From the NCBI RefSeq assembly GCF_030013205.1, contig NZ_CP122648.1: a stretch of DNA of 64,000 nucleotides. The stretch is one strand, 5' to 3'. This document shows positions 1,933 to 37,007 of the stretch, in pieces. Made by a program: the position numbers and the translations under genes. Positions within the stretch are counted from its first letter, which is position 1, and every line of letters begins with the position of its first letter. The DNA comes from Escherichia coli (GTDB lineage Bacteria > Pseudomonadota > Gammaproteobacteria > Enterobacterales > Enterobacteriaceae). The notes beneath the pieces were generated by a model. The model saw only the letters and a list, made by a program, of their open reading frames with translations, did no database searches and was not told where the DNA came from.

Positions 1933-1959
1933 ACAAAAAACGCGCCCGAAGGTGCGTTG
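1933..1959. repeat. attL copy of 27-bp direct repeat (acaaaaaacgcgcccgaaggTgcgttg)
   Basis: Identical to 36563..36589 apart from one mismatch (T vs C); lies next to the integrase gene and abuts the pheL -35 region. Confidence 0.65.
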
Positions 1960-9580: not shown

Positions 9581-10540
9581 ATGAAAATTTGTATCGACGA
9601 CGGCTCCACCAACATCAAGCTGGCATGGACTGAGAACGGCGAACGCCGCAACGCCATCAGCCCGAACAGCTTCAAGTCGGAATGGTCTGCGCCGTTCGGT
9701 GGCTCGCAGCCTGCGAACTACATGCTTGATGGCGTGCGCTATGGTTTTGATCCGGTCAGCGATCGCTTTGTCCAGACGACCGACACGCAATACCAGTACA
9801 GCGATGTGAATGTCATTGCCATTCATCACGCGCTGGTCAAATCAGGCATCACGCCTCAGGAGGTGGATGTGGTTGTCACCCTGCCACTGAGCGAGTATTT
9901 CGACACAAACGCACAGCCAGACATGGCCAACATCAACCGCAAAAAAGCGAACGTTATGCGCCCGGTGGAGTACCAGAACGGCGAAGCATTCACTATCCGT
10001 AACGTGCGGGTTATGCCTGAATCCATTCCGGCTGGTTTTAAGGCACTGGCTGACATGAGTCCGTTTGAATCCCTGCTGATTGTGGATTTGGGCGGAACCA
10101 CGCTGGATGTGGCAAAGGTTCAGGGGCAACTGGCAGGTATCAGCCAGGTGTTTTGCGATCCACACGTAGGCGTTTCTCTGATGGCTGATGCCGTGCTGTC
10201 GGTGATGGCCACTAACGGTATGCGTACCAGTCACCACATCGCCAATACCATTATTGAGCACCGTCACGATGAAGCCTGGCTACGCCAGCACATTCACAAT
10301 GACGCGCATTACAACAGCCTGATGGCGGTTATTCGTGAAAAGGAGGAAACACTGAAACAACGCGTGATCCGCGCGCTGGCGGGTTTTTCGGGTTACGGGC
10401 GGGTGATGGTTGTAGGTGGAGGAGCGGAGATTGTGGCACCCGCTATCCGCGAAGCCTGCGGAGTTAATGCGACTTTCATCGCGGACGGGGTGCCACAGTT
10501 TGCTCTGGTTAATGGGCTGTACGCAATGGACAAGGAGTAA
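9581..10540 (+). CDS. parM: ParM/StbA-like actin-family segregation ATPase
   Basis: MKICIDDGSTNIKLAW...ISPNSF...YSDVNVIAIHHAL...VMPESIPAG...IVDLGGTTLD...VGGGAEI...ALVNGLYAM tracks plasmid R1 ParM along its whole length (recalled alignment). Confidence 0.8.
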   Translation: MKICIDDGSTNIKLAWTENGERRNAISPNSFKSEWSAPFGGSQPANYMLDGVRYGFDPVSDRFVQTTDTQYQYSDVNVIAIHHALVKSGITPQEVDVVVTLPLSEYFDTNAQPDMANINRKKANVMRPVEYQNGEAFTIRNVRVMPESIPAGFKALADMSPFESLLIVDLGGTTLDVAKVQGQLAGISQVFCDPHVGVSLMADAVLSVMATNGMRTSHHIANTIIEHRHDEAWLRQHIHNDAHYNSLMAVIREKEETLKQRVIRALAGFSGYGRVMVVGGGAEIVAPAIREACGVNATFIADGVPQFALVNGLYAMDKE

Positions 10541-10544
10541 ATCA

Positions 10545-10859
10545 ATGACGACACCAACCAGACGGATAAGTTTCTATCTGAAGCCCGCCGTCGTCAAGAG
10601 CGAACGGGAGGCGTGCAGTTACCTCGACAGCCTGCCAGCCTCCGAACGCAGCCGCGCACAACGCGCGGCTTTTCTGGCCGGACTGGCTCTTATAAAACGC
10701 ATCCCCGCGTTGGCGTATTCGCTGGCAGAATGGTCAGAAGACGAAATAAGGATGCCACCGCTACCAGTACAGCCTGAAAAACCGGCGAAACCAGCAGCAG
10801 ACAGCGCCCCCCATATGCAGCAGGTGAAGAAGAATATTCAGGCGTTTTTTCCGAAGTGA
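10545..10859 (+). CDS. parR: ParR-like centromere-binding adaptor (putative)
   Basis: RRISFYLKPAVVKSEREACSYLDSLPASERSRAQRAAFLAGLALIKR resembles the R1 ParR N-terminal DNA-binding region; immediately downstream of parM. Confidence 0.6.
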   Translation: MTTPTRRISFYLKPAVVKSEREACSYLDSLPASERSRAQRAAFLAGLALIKRIPALAYSLAEWSEDEIRMPPLPVQPEKPAKPAADSAPHMQQVKKNIQAFFPK

Positions 10860-31679: not shown

Positions 31680-32226
31680 CGGGGAAGCCATTCTGCTGCG
31701 CAACATCACCGTCAGCGCCACCATGCAACTACCGGACAAAGATATGTCCGGACAGTCAACCAGCACCACGAGCGCCCAGCAGGGAAACAAGGCTAAAGAG
31801 CTGCGCGTTTCGGGGGTTATTGATTTTAACGATGAAGCCATTCTGACCCGTATTTTTCAGCTTGCGGAAGCAACAGAAAGCAACGGCGCTAAAAAAACAT
31901 ATCGCATTGCTAACGCTACCGCGAAGGCAATCAATATGCGACAGGGGATATTTTCTGGTGGCATTGATGCCACGGAACAACAGGGAAAAATGCACTGGCA
32001 GGTCACCTTTACTCTCAGGGAAAAATTAAGCGTGCCAGAGAAAGCATCAGCACGTAGCGGTTCACAAAAAACCATCGCCAGACAGCAGACCCAGAATGGC
32101 AGCGAACAGGCACCAGACAAAGGCATGAATACGCAAAGTTCGTTCTGGAAAAAAATCAATGATGCCGTTGGCTCTGGTCTGGATGCTGTTGGCATCGGGA
32201 GCGTGAAAGAGGAAGGGAAAACATGA
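31651..32226 (+). CDS. Hypothetical protein
   Basis: 191-aa ORF between the fibre module and the spike gene. Confidence 0.4.
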   Translation: MTQMIVLALDGEAILLRNITVSATMQLPDKDMSGQSTSTTSAQQGNKAKELRVSGVIDFNDEAILTRIFQLAEATESNGAKKTYRIANATAKAINMRQGIFSGGIDATEQQGKMHWQVTFTLREKLSVPEKASARSGSQKTIARQQTQNGSEQAPDKGMNTQSSFWKKINDAVGSGLDAVGIGSVKEEGKT

Positions 32227-33920
32227 AATTGATACAACGCTGCATGATTAATGGCGAACGGGTGGAAATTGCCGATATAAGCCTTGTTCTTACCCTGAAT
32301 GCTGCCGGTCGTGGCTTCATTTCTGTTAACAATCTGTCATCCGAACACAGCCTTGCCGGCGCAATGGTACAAATTGATCTCGGTCGTGACGGTGAAGCAT
32401 GGCGCTATTTCTCCGGCTATATTGAGCGCGATCAACCTGCTGAAAATGGCTCACGTCGCCTTTTTATTCGTGAAGCGGCTGCTGTGCTGGATTTTGATTT
32501 CCCCTGCTCCATGCAACACCCGACGTTGCGGGAGGTACTCGATAATCTGGGGCGACAAAGCGGTATCGTTTTTATCACTCCGGATGCGGATTATGCCAGT
32601 ATACCAACTCCCTACATCACCCACAGCGGCAGCGGAGCACAACTGCTCAGCCAGCTGGGGCGAGCATTCAGTATCAACGATTACGTCTGGCACCCTATGC
32701 CGGACGGTTCTGTATTTGTGGGAAGTGCAGCTGATTCACGATTTGCCAGCATTACAATGCCGGATATTCCGCAACAGTACACACTCGGGCAAAGCGGCGG
32801 AAACAGCATCGACATCATGTTTATGGAAACTGTGCGACCGGGCGTGAACCTTCCGGCCGGGCGCATTACCCGTGTAGCCCTCAACAACGAGAAAATGACC
32901 CTGACATGGGAGCGCCTTACCGCCACGGGCAGCCCTGTCTCCAAATCACCATTACGCAGACAGATGGAAACACAGTTCCCGGAACTGGCCAGCGGCACAC
33001 TACACACCAGGCTGGCGCGCGTCATTGCACCAACGGAATCCGCCACCCTGGGCGATGTGGCCGACAGCTTCCGTCCACGCTACGCCGTGGACGTGCAACT
33101 GCTCGATGAGGACGGCAACGATAAAAGCGATACGCCTGTTTACCCGGCAGTCCCACTCCCCGTCCCGATGGCTGGTAGCGAGGCGGGATGTTTTGCCTAC
33201 CCGCCGGCAGGCACCATCGTGGAAATATCTAACATTGAAGGGCGCCCGGATAAACCTGTTATCAGGCAAATCTTACCTGCTGGCCATAACCTGCCTGATG
33301 TAAAGCCCGGCGAACAACTGCAGCAACAGCGCGCAGAAGTGTTTCAGCGCGTCACGACTGACGGAAGCTGGCACAGAGAAACAGACCAGCAAATCAGGGA
33401 GCAGTCAGCCACCCGCACAATTAACAGTGATGCAGAAGAGCGCACCACAACAACCAGAACAACCACAGTACGGGCAAACGACATAACCAGTGTTCTGGGA
33501 ACCAGCAAGCTGGCGGCAGGACAAATAGAGCACCTTACTACCGGCCATTACGCGATCGCAGCCAGCGAGCATATCCAGATGGTAGCGCAGGATTTGCTGA
33601 CTAAACTCAAAGGGGCAATATCCACAATTGAGCAGGACCTGACTGAAAACGTGGGAGGCCGCAGAACATGCCGGGCGGACGGCGGTCTGAAGTTTACAGC
33701 CCCGACAGTATTTATTGGTCGCGGTGGCTCACGGGAAAAATCCGAACTTAATCTGCTGACGTTGTTGATTGATATTCTGGATCTGATTCAATTGCTGGCC
33801 ACGCACACAGCAAACCACACCCACAGCAACACTGGCGCACCAATGAACAGCGGCGAACTTGCCGCAGATGCCCTGCAGGCTACGAGCCTGCGCGAAAAAT
33901 ACGGCGACCTTATCGCCTGA
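32223..33920 (+). CDS. Baseplate hub/central spike protein (putative)
   Basis: 565 aa; C-terminal ...LIDILDLIQLLATHTANHTHSNTG... carries HxH repeats like the metal-binding apex of phage central spikes. Confidence 0.45.
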   Translation: MKLIQRCMINGERVEIADISLVLTLNAAGRGFISVNNLSSEHSLAGAMVQIDLGRDGEAWRYFSGYIERDQPAENGSRRLFIREAAAVLDFDFPCSMQHPTLREVLDNLGRQSGIVFITPDADYASIPTPYITHSGSGAQLLSQLGRAFSINDYVWHPMPDGSVFVGSAADSRFASITMPDIPQQYTLGQSGGNSIDIMFMETVRPGVNLPAGRITRVALNNEKMTLTWERLTATGSPVSKSPLRRQMETQFPELASGTLHTRLARVIAPTESATLGDVADSFRPRYAVDVQLLDEDGNDKSDTPVYPAVPLPVPMAGSEAGCFAYPPAGTIVEISNIEGRPDKPVIRQILPAGHNLPDVKPGEQLQQQRAEVFQRVTTDGSWHRETDQQIREQSATRTINSDAEERTTTTRTTTVRANDITSVLGTSKLAAGQIEHLTTGHYAIAASEHIQMVAQDLLTKLKGAISTIEQDLTENVGGRRTCRADGGLKFTAPTVFIGRGGSREKSELNLLTLLIDILDLIQLLATHTANHTHSNTGAPMNSGELAADALQATSLREKYGDLIA

Positions 33921-33958
33921 GCTCCCGACATAAAACCCACATAAACGCCCCATCAAAC

Positions 33959-33985
33959 AACGCACGGTTCCGACCGTGCGTTTTT
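33959..33985 (+). terminator. Intrinsic terminator after the tail operon
   Basis: aacgcacggttccgaccgtgcgtttttc hairpin plus T-run. Confidence 0.6.
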
Positions 33986-34749
33986 CATATCCACCACCTG
34001 ATTAATGCGTTCTGCGTGCCATTCCGGCGCTGTATGCACACACCGCGTAAACGGTGTGACGTAAAGTGTGAGGTGACGTAAACCGCGCTACCCCCTCCAA
34101 CCCGCGGGTTTTGTGTCGAAACAGTTTTTCAGTTTTCTGCCGTGCAAAACTGACCGCCAGCCCGCGCAGCAACTGAGGAAAAAGCGAAGATCTGAAATTT
34201 CACGCTTTGAAATTTTTTGCAGTTTTCAGAGGGATTTTTACGATCTCATGAATGGCAGGAGAAAGAAAACAGGCTGATATTAAAAGAGTTTTCATACTTT
34301 ACGTGGGACAAGACGCGATCGCGAAAGGATCGCATCAAAAAATCTTCAAACAACGAAGCCAGACGCGGCGCGGCCTGCGTAAGATTGAGAGTCAAAATTA
34401 AACTGAAAAAAGGATCAATACCGCGCCTCGATCGCACATGACGATCTACGCAGCAACAGGACAAAAAAACCGGCGCGAACGCCGGCGGAAGCATGTATCA
34501 AATGCGTGACTGAATAATGTCTACGGTCGGGAATTTTATATCAAAAGGCTGACAGGCCTCAACGGATTGAAACAAGGGAAAAAACCAGGCTAGAATTCGC
34601 GCGGGTGCCTTTCGGCTGATGGTCGGAGGGAATACCCGAAGGCCGGATGTGGAAAGGCCCCGGAAAACATTTCTGTTTAACCGAGGCCCTAACATATCTA
34701 CCTTAAGCAAGTGATAGGTTAGCGCCTCTCCAACAAAGGAGCAAGCGCT

Positions 34750-34890
34750 ATGTCGCAAAAATCGCTTACGGCCATCACGTTCTGCGTGACGGTAATCCTC
34801 ATCATCTGGATGCTGCACGGCTCGCTGTGTGAAATACGGATGAGCTTCTGGGGAGCGGAGTTTGCGGCGTTCTTACAGTGTAAACAGTAA
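34750..34890 (+). CDS. Hok/Gef-family type I toxin (46 aa)
   Basis: MSQKSLTAITFCVTVILIIWMLHGSLCEIRMSFWGAEFAAFLQCKQ carries the Hok/Gef SLCEIR...AAF signature; long structured leader upstream; below the ORF-track cutoff. Confidence 0.65.
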   Translation: MSQKSLTAITFCVTVILIIWMLHGSLCEIRMSFWGAEFAAFLQCKQ

Positions 34891-35025
34891 GGAAACCGCG
34901 ACGGGGGAGCAATCCCCCGTCAATCGGTTGCCAGGGTATGGTCGAAGTGGCACCCAAATTTAAATTGAGGCCCACCAGTAAGAGTGGTGGGCTTAACGCT
35001 TATTTAAATTTGAAAGGAACTCTTT

Positions 35026-35322
35026 ATGAGTGAAATGGTATTTTGTCGCGGATGCGGCAAGGAAATACATAAAGATGCCACATCCTGCCCCAATTGTGGA
35101 GCACCTCAAAGAACAGCAAGTTCAAAAAGCAGAATGACAGCCGCACTACTGGCTTTCTTTTTAGGTGGTCTTGGAGCACACAAATTTTATTTAGGTAAAG
35201 TGGGGCAAGGATTCCTTTACCTTATTTTTTGCTGGACATTCATTCCGGCAATCGTGGCATTTATTGAGTTTTTTATCTATCTATGCACCTCTGATGAAGA
35301 CTTTGCCCGCAAATATGGCTAA
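35026..35322 (+). CDS. Zinc-ribbon plus TM2-domain membrane protein
   Basis: CRGCGKEIHKDATSCPNCGAP zinc ribbon followed by LLAFFLGGLGAHKFYLGKVGQGFLYL; AT-rich. Confidence 0.6.
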   Translation: MSEMVFCRGCGKEIHKDATSCPNCGAPQRTASSKSRMTAALLAFFLGGLGAHKFYLGKVGQGFLYLIFCWTFIPAIVAFIEFFIYLCTSDEDFARKYG

Positions 35323-35347
35323 TGCCTAGTGGGCGAATCAGAATGAC

Positions 35348-35382
35348 AAACCCGCAGCGTAAAAACTGCGGGTTTTCTTTTT
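35348..35382 (+). terminator. Intrinsic terminator after the TM2-domain gene
   Basis: aaacccgcagcgtaaaaactgcgggttttcttttt. Confidence 0.6.
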
Positions 35383-35429
35383 GCTACCCTCACAAATGAG
35401 GACACCATACATAAGCAATAGGCATAACA

Positions 35430-35464
35430 GATCGATGCAATAAATCCGATCGATAAAAACGATC
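35430..35464. promoter_or_regulatory. Cluster of three GATCGAT (Dam GATC) sites upstream of the com-like gene
   Basis: GATC at 35430-35433, 35448-35451 and 35461-35464, about 50-80 bp upstream of the com-like start. Confidence 0.4.
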
Positions 35465-35511
35465 GATTTGTTATCATATCGGCAGCAGTAACCACACAAG
35501 AGGTGCCGCAA

Positions 35512-35709
35512 ATGACGCAAAATGTACGATGCAAAAATTGCAACAAACTACTTGCCCGCGCCTCATTTCACTACATTGAAATAAAATGTCCGCGCTGCAA
35601 AACACTTAACCAGATAACGAGAGCCATCGAGCACCCCACACACATGAGGAGTTATGACCGTGGGGATCGCAATCCAGCACCAACCAGCACATATACCGGA
35701 ACACACTAA
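35512..35709 (+). CDS. com: Com-like zinc-finger translational regulator (phage Mu Com family, putative)
   Basis: MTQNVRCKNCNKLLARASFHYIEIKCPRCKTLNQITRAIEHPT vs recalled Mu Com MKSIRCKNCNKLLFKADSFDHIEIRCPRCK...CEHPT; AAGAGGTG RBS; overlaps the 5' end of the methyltransferase ORF. Confidence 0.6.
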   Translation: MTQNVRCKNCNKLLARASFHYIEIKCPRCKTLNQITRAIEHPTHMRSYDRGDRNPAPTSTYTGTH

Positions 35710-36460
35710 GGTTTATCAGACTGACAATGCCACGCTCTGTCGTGGGAATGCGCTGGAAATATTGCCGCTGATTGAGCCAGAAAGCATTGATGCCTTAATC
35801 ACTGACCCGCCTTACAGTTCGGGTGCGACACACAAGGCCGGACGCACCAACCAGGGCAGCCATGCAAAATATCTGAACGGCGAGAACCTTCACCGCTTTG
35901 ATGGGTTCGCTGGTGAAAACATGGACGCCCGTTCGTGGGCTTACTGGACACAATTATGGATGGCACAGGCACACCGTGCAGTCAGGCCGGGCGGTTATGC
36001 CCTGGTATTTACTGACTGGCGACAACTACCAGCTTTAACCGATGCGTTTCAGGCCAGTGGCTTTACATGGCGCGGCATCATTGCGTGGAACAAGGGGAGG
36101 GGGTCACGAACACCCCATACGGGGTATTTCAGGCATCAGTGCGAATACATCGTCTGGGGCAGCAAAGGCCATTTAGATAAATCGCCTTCGGGGCCGTTCG
36201 ACGGTTGCATGACGTACCCGGTTATCCCGTCAAAGAAAATGCACCCGACCGGAAAACCAGAAGAACTAATGGCGGAACTGGTCAGGACTGTGAATAGTGG
36301 CGGAACAGTCCTTGATCCTTTTATGGGGTCAGGGACAACGGGTGTGGCTGCACTGAAAGCAGGGCGAAAATTTATTGGTATAGAAACCAGTGATCATTAT
36401 TTTGAGGTAGCAGCGCAGCGGCTTCGAGAGACTATTACCACAACCATTTCGGCTACATAA
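35654..36460 (+). CDS. DNA amino-methyltransferase (N6-adenine or N4-cytosine; DPPY motif before the AdoMet motif)
   Basis: ...IDALITDPPYSSG... and ...VLDPFMGSGTTGVAALKAGRKFIGIE...; start lies inside the com-like ORF (ATG 35654, or GTG 35660). Confidence 0.8.
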   Translation: MTVGIAIQHQPAHIPEHTKVYQTDNATLCRGNALEILPLIEPESIDALITDPPYSSGATHKAGRTNQGSHAKYLNGENLHRFDGFAGENMDARSWAYWTQLWMAQAHRAVRPGGYALVFTDWRQLPALTDAFQASGFTWRGIIAWNKGRGSRTPHTGYFRHQCEYIVWGSKGHLDKSPSGPFDGCMTYPVIPSKKMHPTGKPEELMAELVRTVNSGGTVLDPFMGSGTTGVAALKAGRKFIGIETSDHYFEVAAQRLRETITTTISAT

Positions 36461-36562
36461 GACAAAGCCCACATTTTTTTGCGGGCTTGTATATCATTAC
36501 TGATGTGGACAGTTTGTGGATGTTTATAAGAAATAAGCTAATAGAAACAATTCGTTAGCTTT

Positions 36563-36589
36563 ACAAAAAACGCGCCCGAAGGCGCGTTG
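36563..36589. repeat. attR copy of the 27-bp direct repeat; doubles as the raiA intrinsic terminator
   Basis: acaaaaaacgcgcccgaaggcgcgttg; hairpin aacgcgcc-cgaa-ggcgcgtt plus T-run on the raiA strand. Confidence 0.65.
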
Positions 36590-36611
36590 GCGATACACTC
36601 AATATAAAGGA

Positions 36612-37007
<396 letters not shown>

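What the first reader, a model, noticed from the sequence alone, without database searches (positions are those of the whole stretch)
35400..36460. Mu mom-like control architecture driving an amino-methyltransferase: three clustered GATC sites, Com-like zinc finger, overlapping methyltransferase start
Upstream of the operon are three GATCGAT repeats within 35 bp, as in the Dam/OxyR-controlled mom promoter of Mu. The first ORF is a Com-like Cys4 protein (RCKNCNKLL...IEIKCPRCK...EHPT). The downstream gene starts 56 nt inside the com-like ORF, so its ribosome-binding region is embedded in com coding sequence, as in Mu com-mom. The enzyme is not a Mom-type modifier but a DPPY...FMGSGTT amino-methyltransferase. 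This implies epigenetically gated, translationally activated expression of an orphan methyltransferase, plausibly for anti-restriction or self-marking.
Basis: partly seen in the sequence, partly recalled or inferred. Interest (0 to 1): 0.65.

Follow-up and report, generated by a model that had tools for sequence, protein, structure and literature searches.

The report
Com-controlled phage DNA methyltransferase cassette
The last two genes of a P2-family prophage in E. coli are a true relative of phage Mu's com/mom control module, with Mom replaced by an ordinary amino-type DNA methyltransferase; this arrangement is real and well preserved, but it is already annotated and of a kind described before.

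Summary

- **GATC sites:** three sites at 35430, 35448 and 35461. Their 18/13 spacing matches Mu mom, and E. coli agn43 has 19/13.
- **OxyR operator:** these sites lie in the best OxyR-consensus match of the whole window (15/20).
- **Com:** 35512-35709 encodes a Com zinc finger (Pfam 1e-11, 60% identical to Mu Com).
- **Com RNA target:** the motif defined by SELEX occurs once in 64 kb, at 35619-35635.
- **Hairpin:** directly 3' of that motif, CCCCAC/GUGGGG (35634-35665) encloses the Shine-Dalgarno sequence, the AUG and a GUG start, as in Mu.
- **Enzyme:** the cargo (to 36460) is a PF01555 beta-class methyltransferase.

Two differences from Mu stand out. The C-activator site and Mu's own -10/start segment are absent, so the GATC/OxyR operator overlaps a putative extended -10 promoter. 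The same ~265-bp cassette drives Mom or a C5-cytosine methyltransferase in Mu-like E. coli prophages.

Com-plus-methyltransferase pairs are already known (B3, FluMu, KS5), and RefSeq annotates this pair. It is a new member of a known kind. Target sequence and timing of expression remain untested.

The parts
35348..35375 (+). Intrinsic terminator after the TM2-domain gene; it marks the upstream limit of the com transcription unit
   Evidence: 10-bp stem with 6 G-C pairs followed by a T-run
35427..35467 (.). OxyR-type operator holding three Dam sites (GATC at 35430, 35448, 35461). The core is CGATCG-N7-CGATCGAT
   Evidence: Scores 15/20 to the OxyR consensus, the best in the 64-kb window; Mu's proven site scores 13/20 in the same register. 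The 18/13 spacing equals Mu mom, and agn43 has 19/13. Aligned with Mu mom and agn43 in A2. GATC2 and GATC3 are conserved across cassettes
35450..35477 (+). Putative sigma-70 promoter: TCGATA, 16-nt spacer, TG-n-TATCAT (extended -10 at 35472-35477), overlapped by GATC2 and GATC3
   Evidence: Consensus scan, 9/12 with TG; not significant on its own (1 found, 1.8 expected). TATCAT or TATACT is conserved at this column in window-type and L060-type cassettes. This part is inferred
35512..35709 (+). com: 65-aa Cys4 zinc-finger translational activator (Cys 7, 10, 26, 29). Its Shine-Dalgarno GAGG is at 35500-35503
   Evidence: Pfam PF10122 1.1e-11; PHROG 13819 2e-17; 60% identity to Mu Com; RefSeq CDS 35512-35709
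35619..35635 (+). Com RNA-binding site: GAGAGCCAUCGAGCACC, a full match to the bipartite SELEX motif GAGNNCC(N)3GAGNNCC
   Evidence: It is the only match in the 64-kb window (expected 0.04). It sits at the same position in all 64 closely related cassettes. The motif and Mu's natural site are from PMC6483171. The core CC(N)2-3GAG lies 26-36 nt upstream of the cargo start in 7 of 7 cassettes, including distant ones
35634..35665 (+). Translation-inhibition hairpin: arms CCCCAC (35634-35639) and GUGGGG (35660-35665). It encloses the Shine-Dalgarno GAGGAG (35646-35651), the AUG at 35654 and the GUG at 35660
   Evidence: MFE -17.5 kcal/mol for 35612-35672, z = -2.6, frequency 0.53 in the ensemble. 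Both arms are invariant across Mu and all cassettes, with one C-G to U-A change. In Mu the hairpin holds the Mom GUG start in its stem (PMC6483171)
35654..36460 (+). Beta-class (DPPY then FxGxG) amino-type DNA methyltransferase: 268 aa from ATG 35654, 266 aa from the more likely GTG 35660. The first ~25 residues are an overlap-encoded leader
   Evidence: PF01555; PHROG 67 5e-83; PADLOC Type II MTase 7.6e-64. The 266-aa form represents a cluster of 1486 sequences. Homologues align from residue 28 onward
36465..36488 (.). G+C-rich hairpin directly after the methyltransferase stop codon; probable end of the unit
   Evidence: 9-bp stem; no clean T-run on the + strand, so its function is uncertain
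36563..36582 (.). attR core of the prophage, inside the raiA terminator; the partner copy is at 1933-1952
   Evidence: 20-nt exact direct repeat ACAAAAAACGCGCCCGAAGG. The prophage lies between pheL and raiA

Best explanation
This is a com-type control cassette of about 260 bp, fused to a phage beta-class amino DNA methyltransferase. It sits at the attR end of a P2-family prophage.

Proposed mechanism:
1. One mRNA starts at a promoter overlapped by an OxyR operator that contains three Dam sites. OxyR binds when the GATCs are unmethylated or hemimethylated and blocks transcription. Full Dam methylation keeps OxyR off.
2. com is translated freely from its own Shine-Dalgarno sequence.
3. The methyltransferase Shine-Dalgarno sequence, its AUG and its GUG start are locked in the CCCCAC/GUGGGG hairpin.
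4. Com binds the GAG..CC...GAG..CC site immediately 5' of the hairpin and opens it. The enzyme is therefore made only after Com has accumulated.
5. The enzyme then methylates DNA, most likely adenine N6 given DPPY, to protect progeny phage DNA from restriction in the next host.

What is shown: the presence, position and homology of every element.

What is inferred: OxyR and Dam action at this site, Com dependence of translation, the exact promoter, the timing of expression, the target sequence and the anti-restriction role.
For: Com family membership.

The Com RNA motif defined by SELEX and footprinting (PMC6483171) occurs exactly once in 64 kb, at 35619-35635, directly 5' of the hairpin (expected 0.04). 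It is at the same position in all related cassettes. Its core lies 26-36 nt upstream of the cargo start in Mu, KS5, RsoM1USA, Smp131, B3 and JD024 as well (background 0.1 per 80 nt).

The hairpin is predicted with z = -2.6. Its arms are invariant from Mu to this locus.

All three cargo types begin Val-Gly from GUGGG. GAGGAG lies 8 nt from the GUG but only 2 nt from the AUG. Both point to the GUG at 35660, as in Mu, where the Mom GUG is in the stem (PMC6483171).

The GATC spacing of 18/13 is identical to Mu. The operator gives the best OxyR-consensus score in the window (15/20). The core CGATCG-N7-NGATCGAT is shared with the two experimentally proven Dam-sensitive OxyR operators, Mu mom and agn43 (Mu regulation summarised in PMC3378877).

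The GATC cluster is absent upstream of com in phages of the Burkholderia, Ralstonia and Pseudomonas hosts examined.

Nearly identical cassettes (91-100% over about 265 bp) drive Mom in one Mu-like prophage and a C5-cytosine methyltransferase in another. The cassette is therefore a general controller of DNA-modification genes.

Com plus a homologous PF01555 methyltransferase (40-47% identity) recurs in the P2-like phages KS5, RsoM1USA and Smp131.
Against: There are no expression, methylome or binding data for this locus.

The promoter call is weak statistically (1 found, 1.8 expected in shuffles).

The segment that carries Mu's C-activator-dependent -10 and start site is absent (Mu start placed at about L003:1247 from the primer data in PMC3378877). 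No Mor/C gene is annotated in the prophage, and no Ogr-type TGT-N12-ACA was found. What times transcription is therefore unknown.

Natural variants L027-L029 keep com and the methyltransferase but have lost all three GATCs, so the Dam/OxyR layer is dispensable in some lineages.

Covariation support for the hairpin is minimal: one compensatory pair, the rest invariant.

Close methyltransferase relatives exist without Com, so the enzyme does not intrinsically need this control.

DPPY favours N6-adenine, but N4-cytosine is not excluded.
Confidence: 0.75

Rival explanations
1. The cassette is an agn43- or gtr-like epigenetic ON/OFF switch. Because the C-dependent promoter part is missing, the promoter fires whenever the GATCs are methylated and is heritably shut when OxyR occupies them. 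The methyltransferase would then be phase-variable in lysogens, as a lysogenic-conversion trait, and not strictly a late lytic function.
For: The operator overlaps a putative activator-independent extended -10 promoter. Its core is almost the same as the agn43 phase-variation switch: agn43 CGATCGTTTATATCGATCGATAAG against L061 CGATCGTTTTTATCGATCGATAAG. The module sits as a terminator-flanked unit next to attR, beside hok/sok and a TM2-domain gene, a typical moron position.
Against: The added Com/hairpin layer suggests the product must be kept tightly off, as for Mom and the non-specific methyltransferases (PMC3299994, PMC5778455). The promoter is only predicted. No methylome evidence of an extra motif in carrier strains was found in the papers searched.
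Confidence: 0.15
2. The module is a silent, decaying remnant with no current function.
For: Some copies carry truncated methyltransferase ORFs (66 aa in L008, 97 aa in L024). One related prophage (strain K_EC180) is heavily deleted, with a frameshifted integrase.
Against: com and the methyltransferase are intact here and in most of the closely related copies examined. The Com protein was seen on about 1000 contigs and the methyltransferase cluster has 1486 members. The module is present in an isolated, presumably viable phage, Chuche. The non-coding control elements are conserved.
Confidence: 0.05
3. The GATC/CGATCG repeats are bound by some factor other than OxyR, such as SeqA, a phage repressor, or the methyltransferase itself acting on its own promoter. 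Dam/OxyR would then play no part.
For: CGATCG-N7-CGATCG is a repeated palindrome that could serve another dimeric protein. The GATC-less variants L027-L029 exist.
Against: The site shares spacing, register and core sequence with two operators where OxyR binding and Dam sensitivity were shown experimentally (PMC3378877). It is also the best OxyR-consensus match in the window.
Confidence: 0.05

Closest known systems
Phage Mu com-mom operon
   Same: Three GATCs with 18/13 spacing inside an OxyR-type operator. A Com zinc finger with its four Cys conserved. The Com RNA site directly 5' of a hairpin (C/U)CCCAC...GUGGG(G/A) that holds the start codon. The cargo start lies inside the com ORF. The module sits at the end of the phage genome.
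   Different: The cargo is a PF01555 methyltransferase, not the Mom acyltransferase-type modifier. About 33 nt carrying Mu's T-run, -10 and start site are absent, so the operator sits about 33 bp closer to the putative start and overlaps the promoter. The hairpin loop is 20 nt here and 11 nt in Mu. The host element is a P2-family integrating prophage with ogr and no annotated C/Mor.
Com plus DNA adenine methyltransferase in Mu-like phages: B3 ORF47/48, FluMu HI1522.1/HI1523, Pnm1 Nma1821, Hia5 (PMC3299994)
   Same: A Com homologue sits immediately upstream of, and overlapping or abutting, a DNA methyltransferase that occupies Mom's place. The presumed role is anti-restriction, with the enzyme silent in the lysogen.
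   Different: Those enzymes are alpha-class (FxGxG before DPPY) and nearly non-specific. B3 ORF48 shows no similarity to the window enzyme. The specificity of the enzyme here is unknown, and those phages are transposable rather than P2-like.
Com plus N4/N6 methyltransferase in Peduoviridae: Burkholderia KS5 gp21/gp20 (PMC3091744), Ralstonia RsoM1USA, Stenotrophomonas Smp131
   Same: P2-family phages. Com overlaps a PF01555 methyltransferase that is 40-47% identical to the window enzyme. CC(N)2-3GAG lies about 32 nt upstream of the start.
   Different: No GATC/OxyR operator in KS5 or RsoM1USA. The modules sit at different positions in the genome, and the hairpin sequences are different.
E. coli agn43 (flu) OxyR/Dam phase-variation switch
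   Same: Three GATCs spaced 19/13. The core CGATCG-N7-CGATCGAT aligns with the window operator.
   Different: agn43 controls an autotransporter, has no Com/hairpin layer, and its operator position relative to the promoter differs. That last point is from my own knowledge, not tested here.
M.EcoGII / M.EcoGI, prophage-borne non-specific beta-class adenine methyltransferases (PMC5778455)
   Same: Beta-class, prophage-encoded in E. coli, silent in the lysogen.
   Different: They are 349-aa proteins and not the same gene. The paper mentions no com, and I did not examine their loci.

Membership tests
Com (Pfam PF10122, Mu translational activator) | N-terminal CxxC-N15/16-CxxC zinc ribbon with a significant profile match | tested here: met
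   Cys 7, 10, 26, 29 here against Cys 6, 9, 26, 29 in Mu. Pfam 1.1e-11; PHROG 2e-17; 60% identity to Mu Com
Com (Pfam PF10122, Mu translational activator) | A cognate RNA site, CC(N)2-3GAG in a short hairpin or bipartite GAGNNCC(N)2-3GAGNNCC, just 5' of the regulated start | tested here: met
   Single match in the window at 35619-35635 (expected 0.04). The motif is from PMC6483171. It is conserved in all related cassettes
Com (Pfam PF10122, Mu translational activator) | Zinc binding and specific RNA binding by the protein | not testable with these tools
   Needs biochemistry
Mu-type translation-inhibition structure | A hairpin adjacent to the Com site that sequesters the downstream gene's Shine-Dalgarno sequence and/or start codon (GUG in the 3' arm) | tested here: met
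   CCCCAC/GUGGGG at 35634-35665 encloses GAGGAG, AUG and GUG. -17.5 kcal/mol, z = -2.6. The arms are invariant across Mu and 30 other variants; one compensatory pair only
Mu mom-type promoter control | A cluster of three Dam sites within an OxyR operator upstream of com | tested here: met
   Spacing 18/13 as in Mu. OxyR consensus 15/20, top of the window. Alignments A1 and A2. OxyR binding itself was not tested
Mu mom-type promoter control | Dependence on the C (Mor/C family) activator: a C site at -28 to -57, a poor -35, a T-run spacer | tested here: not met
   The ~33-nt segment holding Mu's T-run, -10 and start is absent from this cassette. No Mor/C gene is annotated in the prophage, only ogr
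Beta-class N6A/N4C amino-methyltransferase (PF01555) | Catalytic (D/S)PPY motif N-terminal to the AdoMet motif FxGxG, with a profile match | tested here: met
   DPPY near residue 52 and FMGSGTT near residue 223. PF01555 in two segments, 1.2e-10 and 6.7e-20. Nearest solved relative is the H. pylori adenine methyltransferase 5hek, 1e-20
Mom (Mu DNA modification protein) | Sequence similarity to Mu Mom | tested here: not met
   In a BLASTP against both references, the cargo of window-type loci matches only the methyltransferase reference, not Mu Mom; other cassettes do carry Mom at 72-97% identity
Type II restriction-modification system | A cognate restriction endonuclease gene next to the methyltransferase | tested here: not met
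   The neighbours are com, a TM2-domain gene, hok/sok and attR/raiA. The neighbouring proteins tested have no PADLOC hits

The most novel reading that the evidence does not exclude
The ~265-bp unit is a portable, recombination-swappable controller for dangerous DNA-modification genes. It comprises the OxyR/Dam operator, com, the Com site and the hairpin with its GUG start. It is shared by Mu-like and P2-like enterobacterial phages and is joined at codon 3-4 to at least three unrelated enzymes: Mom, a C5-cytosine methyltransferase and a beta-class amino-methyltransferase. In this short form, which lacks the C-activator site, it would behave like the agn43 switch, making methyltransferase expression heritably ON or OFF in lysogens. 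That would be a Dam/OxyR-driven phase-variable prophage methyltransferase.
Probability: 0.15. Interest if true: 0.6.

Novelty: new member of a known kind. Interest (0 to 1): 0.3.

Why it matters
This locus extends the Mu com/mom control logic to a P2-family E. coli prophage and to a beta-class methyltransferase. Transcription would be gated epigenetically by Dam and OxyR, and translation would need an RNA-binding zinc finger.

The comparison also shows that the control region travels as a discrete cassette while the enzyme is exchanged. That helps in two practical ways. It may explain why some prophage methyltransferases leave no signature in lysogen methylomes. It also flags genes placed behind com as candidate anti-restriction modifiers worth cloning.

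It does not change current understanding. The module is already annotated and the principle was published for other phages.

Tried and rejected
**M.EcoGII/M.EcoGI.** I checked whether the enzyme is one of these. It is not: they are 349 aa, and the paper describes a different protein.

**The 350-aa cargo behind related Com genes.** I suspected it might be M.EcoGII-like. It is a C5-cytosine methyltransferase (PF00145).

**Ogr-type late promoter.** I looked for TGT-N12-ACA upstream of com and found none.

**Covariation in the hairpin.** Among 32 distinct sequences there is only one compensatory pair; the rest are invariant. I did not build a covariance model.

**Whole-region folding.** Folds of about 110 nt are not more stable than shuffles (z = -0.8 for the window, -0.2 for Mu). 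Only the local hairpin stands out.

**Does the enzyme family always travel with Com?** No. Relatives at 51-62% identity lie in other phage contexts.

**Literature.**
- Searches for a measured specificity or for phase variation of this methyltransferase found nothing.
- I recalled that Salmonella STM5308 was a Dam-controlled methyltransferase; this was wrong, it is a sugar transporter.
- The Hattman and Sun paper on OxyR and hemimethylated Pmom (PMC147061) is not held.

**Rfam.** It has no family for the Com site or the hairpin. The only notable match in 33900-36620 is sok.
Full report
**Where this is.** The window is identical to the E. coli ETEC4079 chromosome, NZ_CP122643.1 from position 1247726. 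A prophage of about 34.6 kb lies between pheL and raiA.
- It has P2-type genes: integrase, Cox-like, a gpA-type replication endonuclease, ogr, portal, terminase, and the GPO and P2-family capsid genes.
- Its ends are marked by a 20-nt direct repeat at 1933 and 36563, inside the raiA terminator.
- The finding is the last transcription unit before attR.
- RefSeq annotates it as 'Com family DNA-binding transcriptional regulator' (35512-35709) and 'DNA-methyltransferase' (35654-36460).
- At least 80% of the stretch 34900-36600 is present in 81 of 5426 complete E. coli genomes.
- The Com protein was seen on about 1000 contigs, and the methyltransferase belongs to a 90%-identity cluster of 1486 sequences.
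- The isolated P2-like phage Chuche carries the module at 95.7% identity, annotated 'gpCom control of modification' plus 'DNA methyltransferase'.

- GATCGAT occurs at 35430, 35448 and 35461. The heptamer is not enriched in the window overall (7 found, 7.3 expected). Triple-GATC clusters occur at four places in 64 kb, so the count alone proves little.
- The Com-like ORF matches Pfam Zn_ribbon_Com (1.1e-11) and the PHROG 'gpCom control of modification' (2e-17). It is 60% identical to Mu Com, and the four zinc-binding cysteines align.
- The downstream ORF overlaps com by 56 nt counted from ATG 35654.
- It is a PF01555 enzyme with DPPY before FMGSGTT, which is the beta-class motif order. Its nearest solved relative is a small H. 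pylori adenine methyltransferase.
- No restriction gene is nearby.

**Transcriptional control region.**
- Mu's three GATCs (L003 1160, 1178, 1191) are spaced 18 and 13 bp. The window's are spaced 18 and 13 bp.
- I scanned the whole window with the OxyR consensus ATAGnTnnnAnCTAT-N7-ATAGnTnnnAnCTAT. The two best hits of the 64 kb lie on this cluster (15/20 at 35418 and 35427). Mu's experimentally established operator scores 13/20 in the same register.
- The agn43 regulatory region of E. coli K-12 is the other classical Dam-sensitive OxyR operator. It has three GATCs spaced 19 and 13 bp and aligns on the invariant core CGATCG-N7-NGATCGAT.
- OxyR/Dam control of Pmom and its dependence on the activator C are summarised in PMC3378877.

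**A real difference from Mu.**
- In alignment A1, Mu and its closest relatives carry about 33 nt between the third GATC and the com Shine-Dalgarno sequence. The window lacks these 33 nt.
- Using the primer position given in PMC3378877, I place Mu's start site at about L003:1247. That puts Mu's T-run, -10 and start site inside the missing segment.
- In the window the third GATC is followed after 7 nt by TG-n-TATCAT (35472-35477). The consensus scan pairs this with TCGATA at 35450.
- If this is the promoter, the operator spans roughly -57 to -21 and would occlude it directly.
- The promoter call is not statistically significant on its own.
- No Ogr-type TGT-N12-ACA is present, and no Mor/C gene is annotated in the prophage.
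- What times transcription is therefore an open point.
- An upstream terminator at 35348-35375 makes read-through from the TM2-domain gene unlikely.

**Translational control region.**
- Nowacka et al. (PMC6483171) defined the Com target by SELEX and footprinting. It is CC(N)2-3GAG within a short hairpin, with the bipartite form NGAGNNCC(N)2-3GAGNNCCNN. It lies next to the translation-inhibition hairpin, whose stem holds the Mom GUG start.
- The pattern GAGNNCCNNNGAGNNCC occurs exactly once in the window, at 35619-35635 on the + strand (expected 0.04).
- It overlaps the 5' arm of a hairpin by two bases. The hairpin arms are CCCCAC (35634-35639) and GUGGGG (35660-35665).
- The 20-nt loop contains GAGGAG and the AUG. 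An inner CAUGA/UUAUG stem pairs the AUG.
- The 61-nt segment folds at -17.5 kcal/mol, z = -2.6, with the MFE structure at 0.53 of the ensemble.
- Across 32 distinct sequences from Mu to this locus, the arms are invariant apart from one C-G to U-A exchange. Support for the hairpin therefore comes from conservation and the Mu experiments, not from covariation.
- GAGGAG is 2 nt from the AUG but 8 nt from the GUG at 35660.
- All cargo proteins behind related Com genes begin Val-Gly from GUGGG.
- A 266-aa form, the length expected from that GUG, represents the large public cluster.
- I therefore take the GUG at 35660 as the probable start, as in Mu.
- The 'EHPT' residues of Com are encoded by GAGCACCCCAC, that is, by the 3' half of the Com site and the 5' arm of the hairpin.

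**The cassette is modular.** A scan of viral contigs with this Com returned 80 loci.
- L004-L030 carry the same methyltransferase (75-99% identity).
- L031-L059, L060 and L063 carry Mom (72-80% identical to Mu Mom), and L068-L083 carry Mom at 92-97%.
- L040, L049, L053, L061, L062 and L064-L067 carry a protein of about 350 aa. It is a C5-cytosine methyltransferase (PF00145, 1.9e-39).
- The L040 type sits at the right end of a Mu-like prophage in E. coli.
- L060 (Mom) and L061 (C5) are 91-98% identical from the GATCs to the hairpin, and 31% identical beyond it. L031 (Mom) and L040 (C5) behave the same way.
- Windowed identity puts the shared block from about 100 nt upstream of the com start to just past GUGGGGAAC, about 265 bp, with unrelated DNA on both sides.
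- In the window's enzyme, homologues align only from residue 28. The first ~25 residues are therefore a leader encoded largely by the overlap with com.

**Wider distribution.**
- Com homologues precede PF01555 methyltransferases that are 40-47% identical to this one in the P2-family phages KS5, RsoM1USA and Smp131.
- Com precedes an unrelated alpha-class methyltransferase in B3, and Mom in JD024.
- In all of these, plus Mu and the window, a CC(N)2-3GAG motif lies 26-36 nt upstream of the cargo start (background 0.1 per 80 nt).
- No GATC lies within 130 nt upstream of com in the Burkholderia, Ralstonia and Pseudomonas phages. This fits the GATC layer being an adaptation to hosts that have Dam. 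Host Dam status is from my own knowledge.
- Methyltransferase relatives at 51-62% identity occur without Com in other phage contexts.
- Variants L027-L029 have lost all three GATCs but keep com and the enzyme.

**What is known already.**
- Drozdz et al. (PMC3299994) describe com homologues followed by adenine methyltransferases in place of mom in FluMu, Pnm1, the H. influenzae aegyptius island and B3. They showed that Hia5, Hin1523 and Nme1821 are nearly non-specific. They attribute their silence in lysogens to Com-type control.
- Lynch et al. (PMC3091744) list a Com translational regulator overlapping an N4/N6 methylase in the P2-like phage KS5.
- The window's module is thus a new member of a described kind.
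- I did not find in the papers searched: the nucleotide-level conservation of the OxyR/Dam operator outside Mu, the loss of the C-dependent promoter segment, or the exact cargo-exchange junction. These are comparative observations, not demonstrations of function.

**Mechanism and confidence.**
- I rate Com-dependent translational activation of a DNA methyltransferase, with OxyR/Dam-sensitive transcription, at 0.75.
- The main rival (0.15) keeps the same parts but reads the short, C-independent promoter plus the agn43-like operator as a heritable ON/OFF switch in lysogens.
- A decaying remnant (0.05) and a non-OxyR ligand for the repeats (0.05) are less likely.
- The RefSeq label 'DNA-binding transcriptional regulator' for Com conflicts with the experimental literature, which shows RNA binding (PMC6483171).
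- Target sequence, modified base and timing remain unknown.

Noticed in passing
L060 vs L061 and L031 vs L040 (locus coordinates ~2400-2665); L091 21202-22408: Nearly identical com control cassettes (91-100% over about 265 bp) are joined to Mom in one Mu-like prophage and to a C5-cytosine methyltransferase (PF00145) in another. Similarity ends a few bases after the GUGGGGAAC start, which indicates cargo exchange at the hairpin.
   Followed up: partly
L098 (E. coli K-12 agn43/flu upstream, locus 166-210) compared with window 35427-35467: The agn43 OxyR/Dam phase-variation operator (GATC spacing 19/13) aligns with the com-cassette operator on CGATCG-N7-CGATCGAT. It is almost identical to the version in L061 and L066.
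   Followed up: partly
L027, L028, L029 (about 2400-2500): These are natural variants of the same com-methyltransferase module (enzyme 92% identical). A short deletion removed GATC1 and GATC2, and GATC3 is mutated to AATC, so they have no Dam site upstream of com.
   Followed up: no
window 34603-34890: A hok/sok-type toxin-antitoxin module lies here. The sok RNA match is below Rfam's gathering score (44.8 bits, E = 3.6e-8), and a 46-aa Hok/Gef ORF is at 34750-34890. It sits just upstream of the TM2-domain gene and the com unit.
   Followed up: partly
window 33921-34749, including 34413-34446: About 830 bp have no annotated gene between the baseplate-like gene and hok. The stretch contains another cluster of three GATCs within about 34 bp (starts between 34413 and 34443).
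   Followed up: no
window 9581-10859: ParM-type and partition/stability genes lie inside the P2-family prophage. They hint at a plasmid-like maintenance mode.
   Followed up: no
window 1933-1952 and 36563-36582: The prophage attachment core is a 20-nt repeat that forms part of the raiA terminator hairpin. Integration regenerates a terminator at both ends.
   Followed up: partly
window 32223-33920: A 565-aa protein annotated 'hypothetical' matches a PHROG baseplate protein (1.8e-232) and shows weak VgrG-tip similarity. The tail module is not P2-like although the head and replication genes are.
   Followed up: no
L008 and L024 (cargo ORFs): In two otherwise near-identical copies the methyltransferase ORF is cut to 66 and 97 aa. 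This suggests occasional inactivation of the enzyme while com stays intact.
   Followed up: no
window 35512-35709 (annotation): The RefSeq product name 'Com family DNA-binding transcriptional regulator' does not fit the experimental evidence. Com is an RNA-binding translational activator (PMC6483171).
   Followed up: yes
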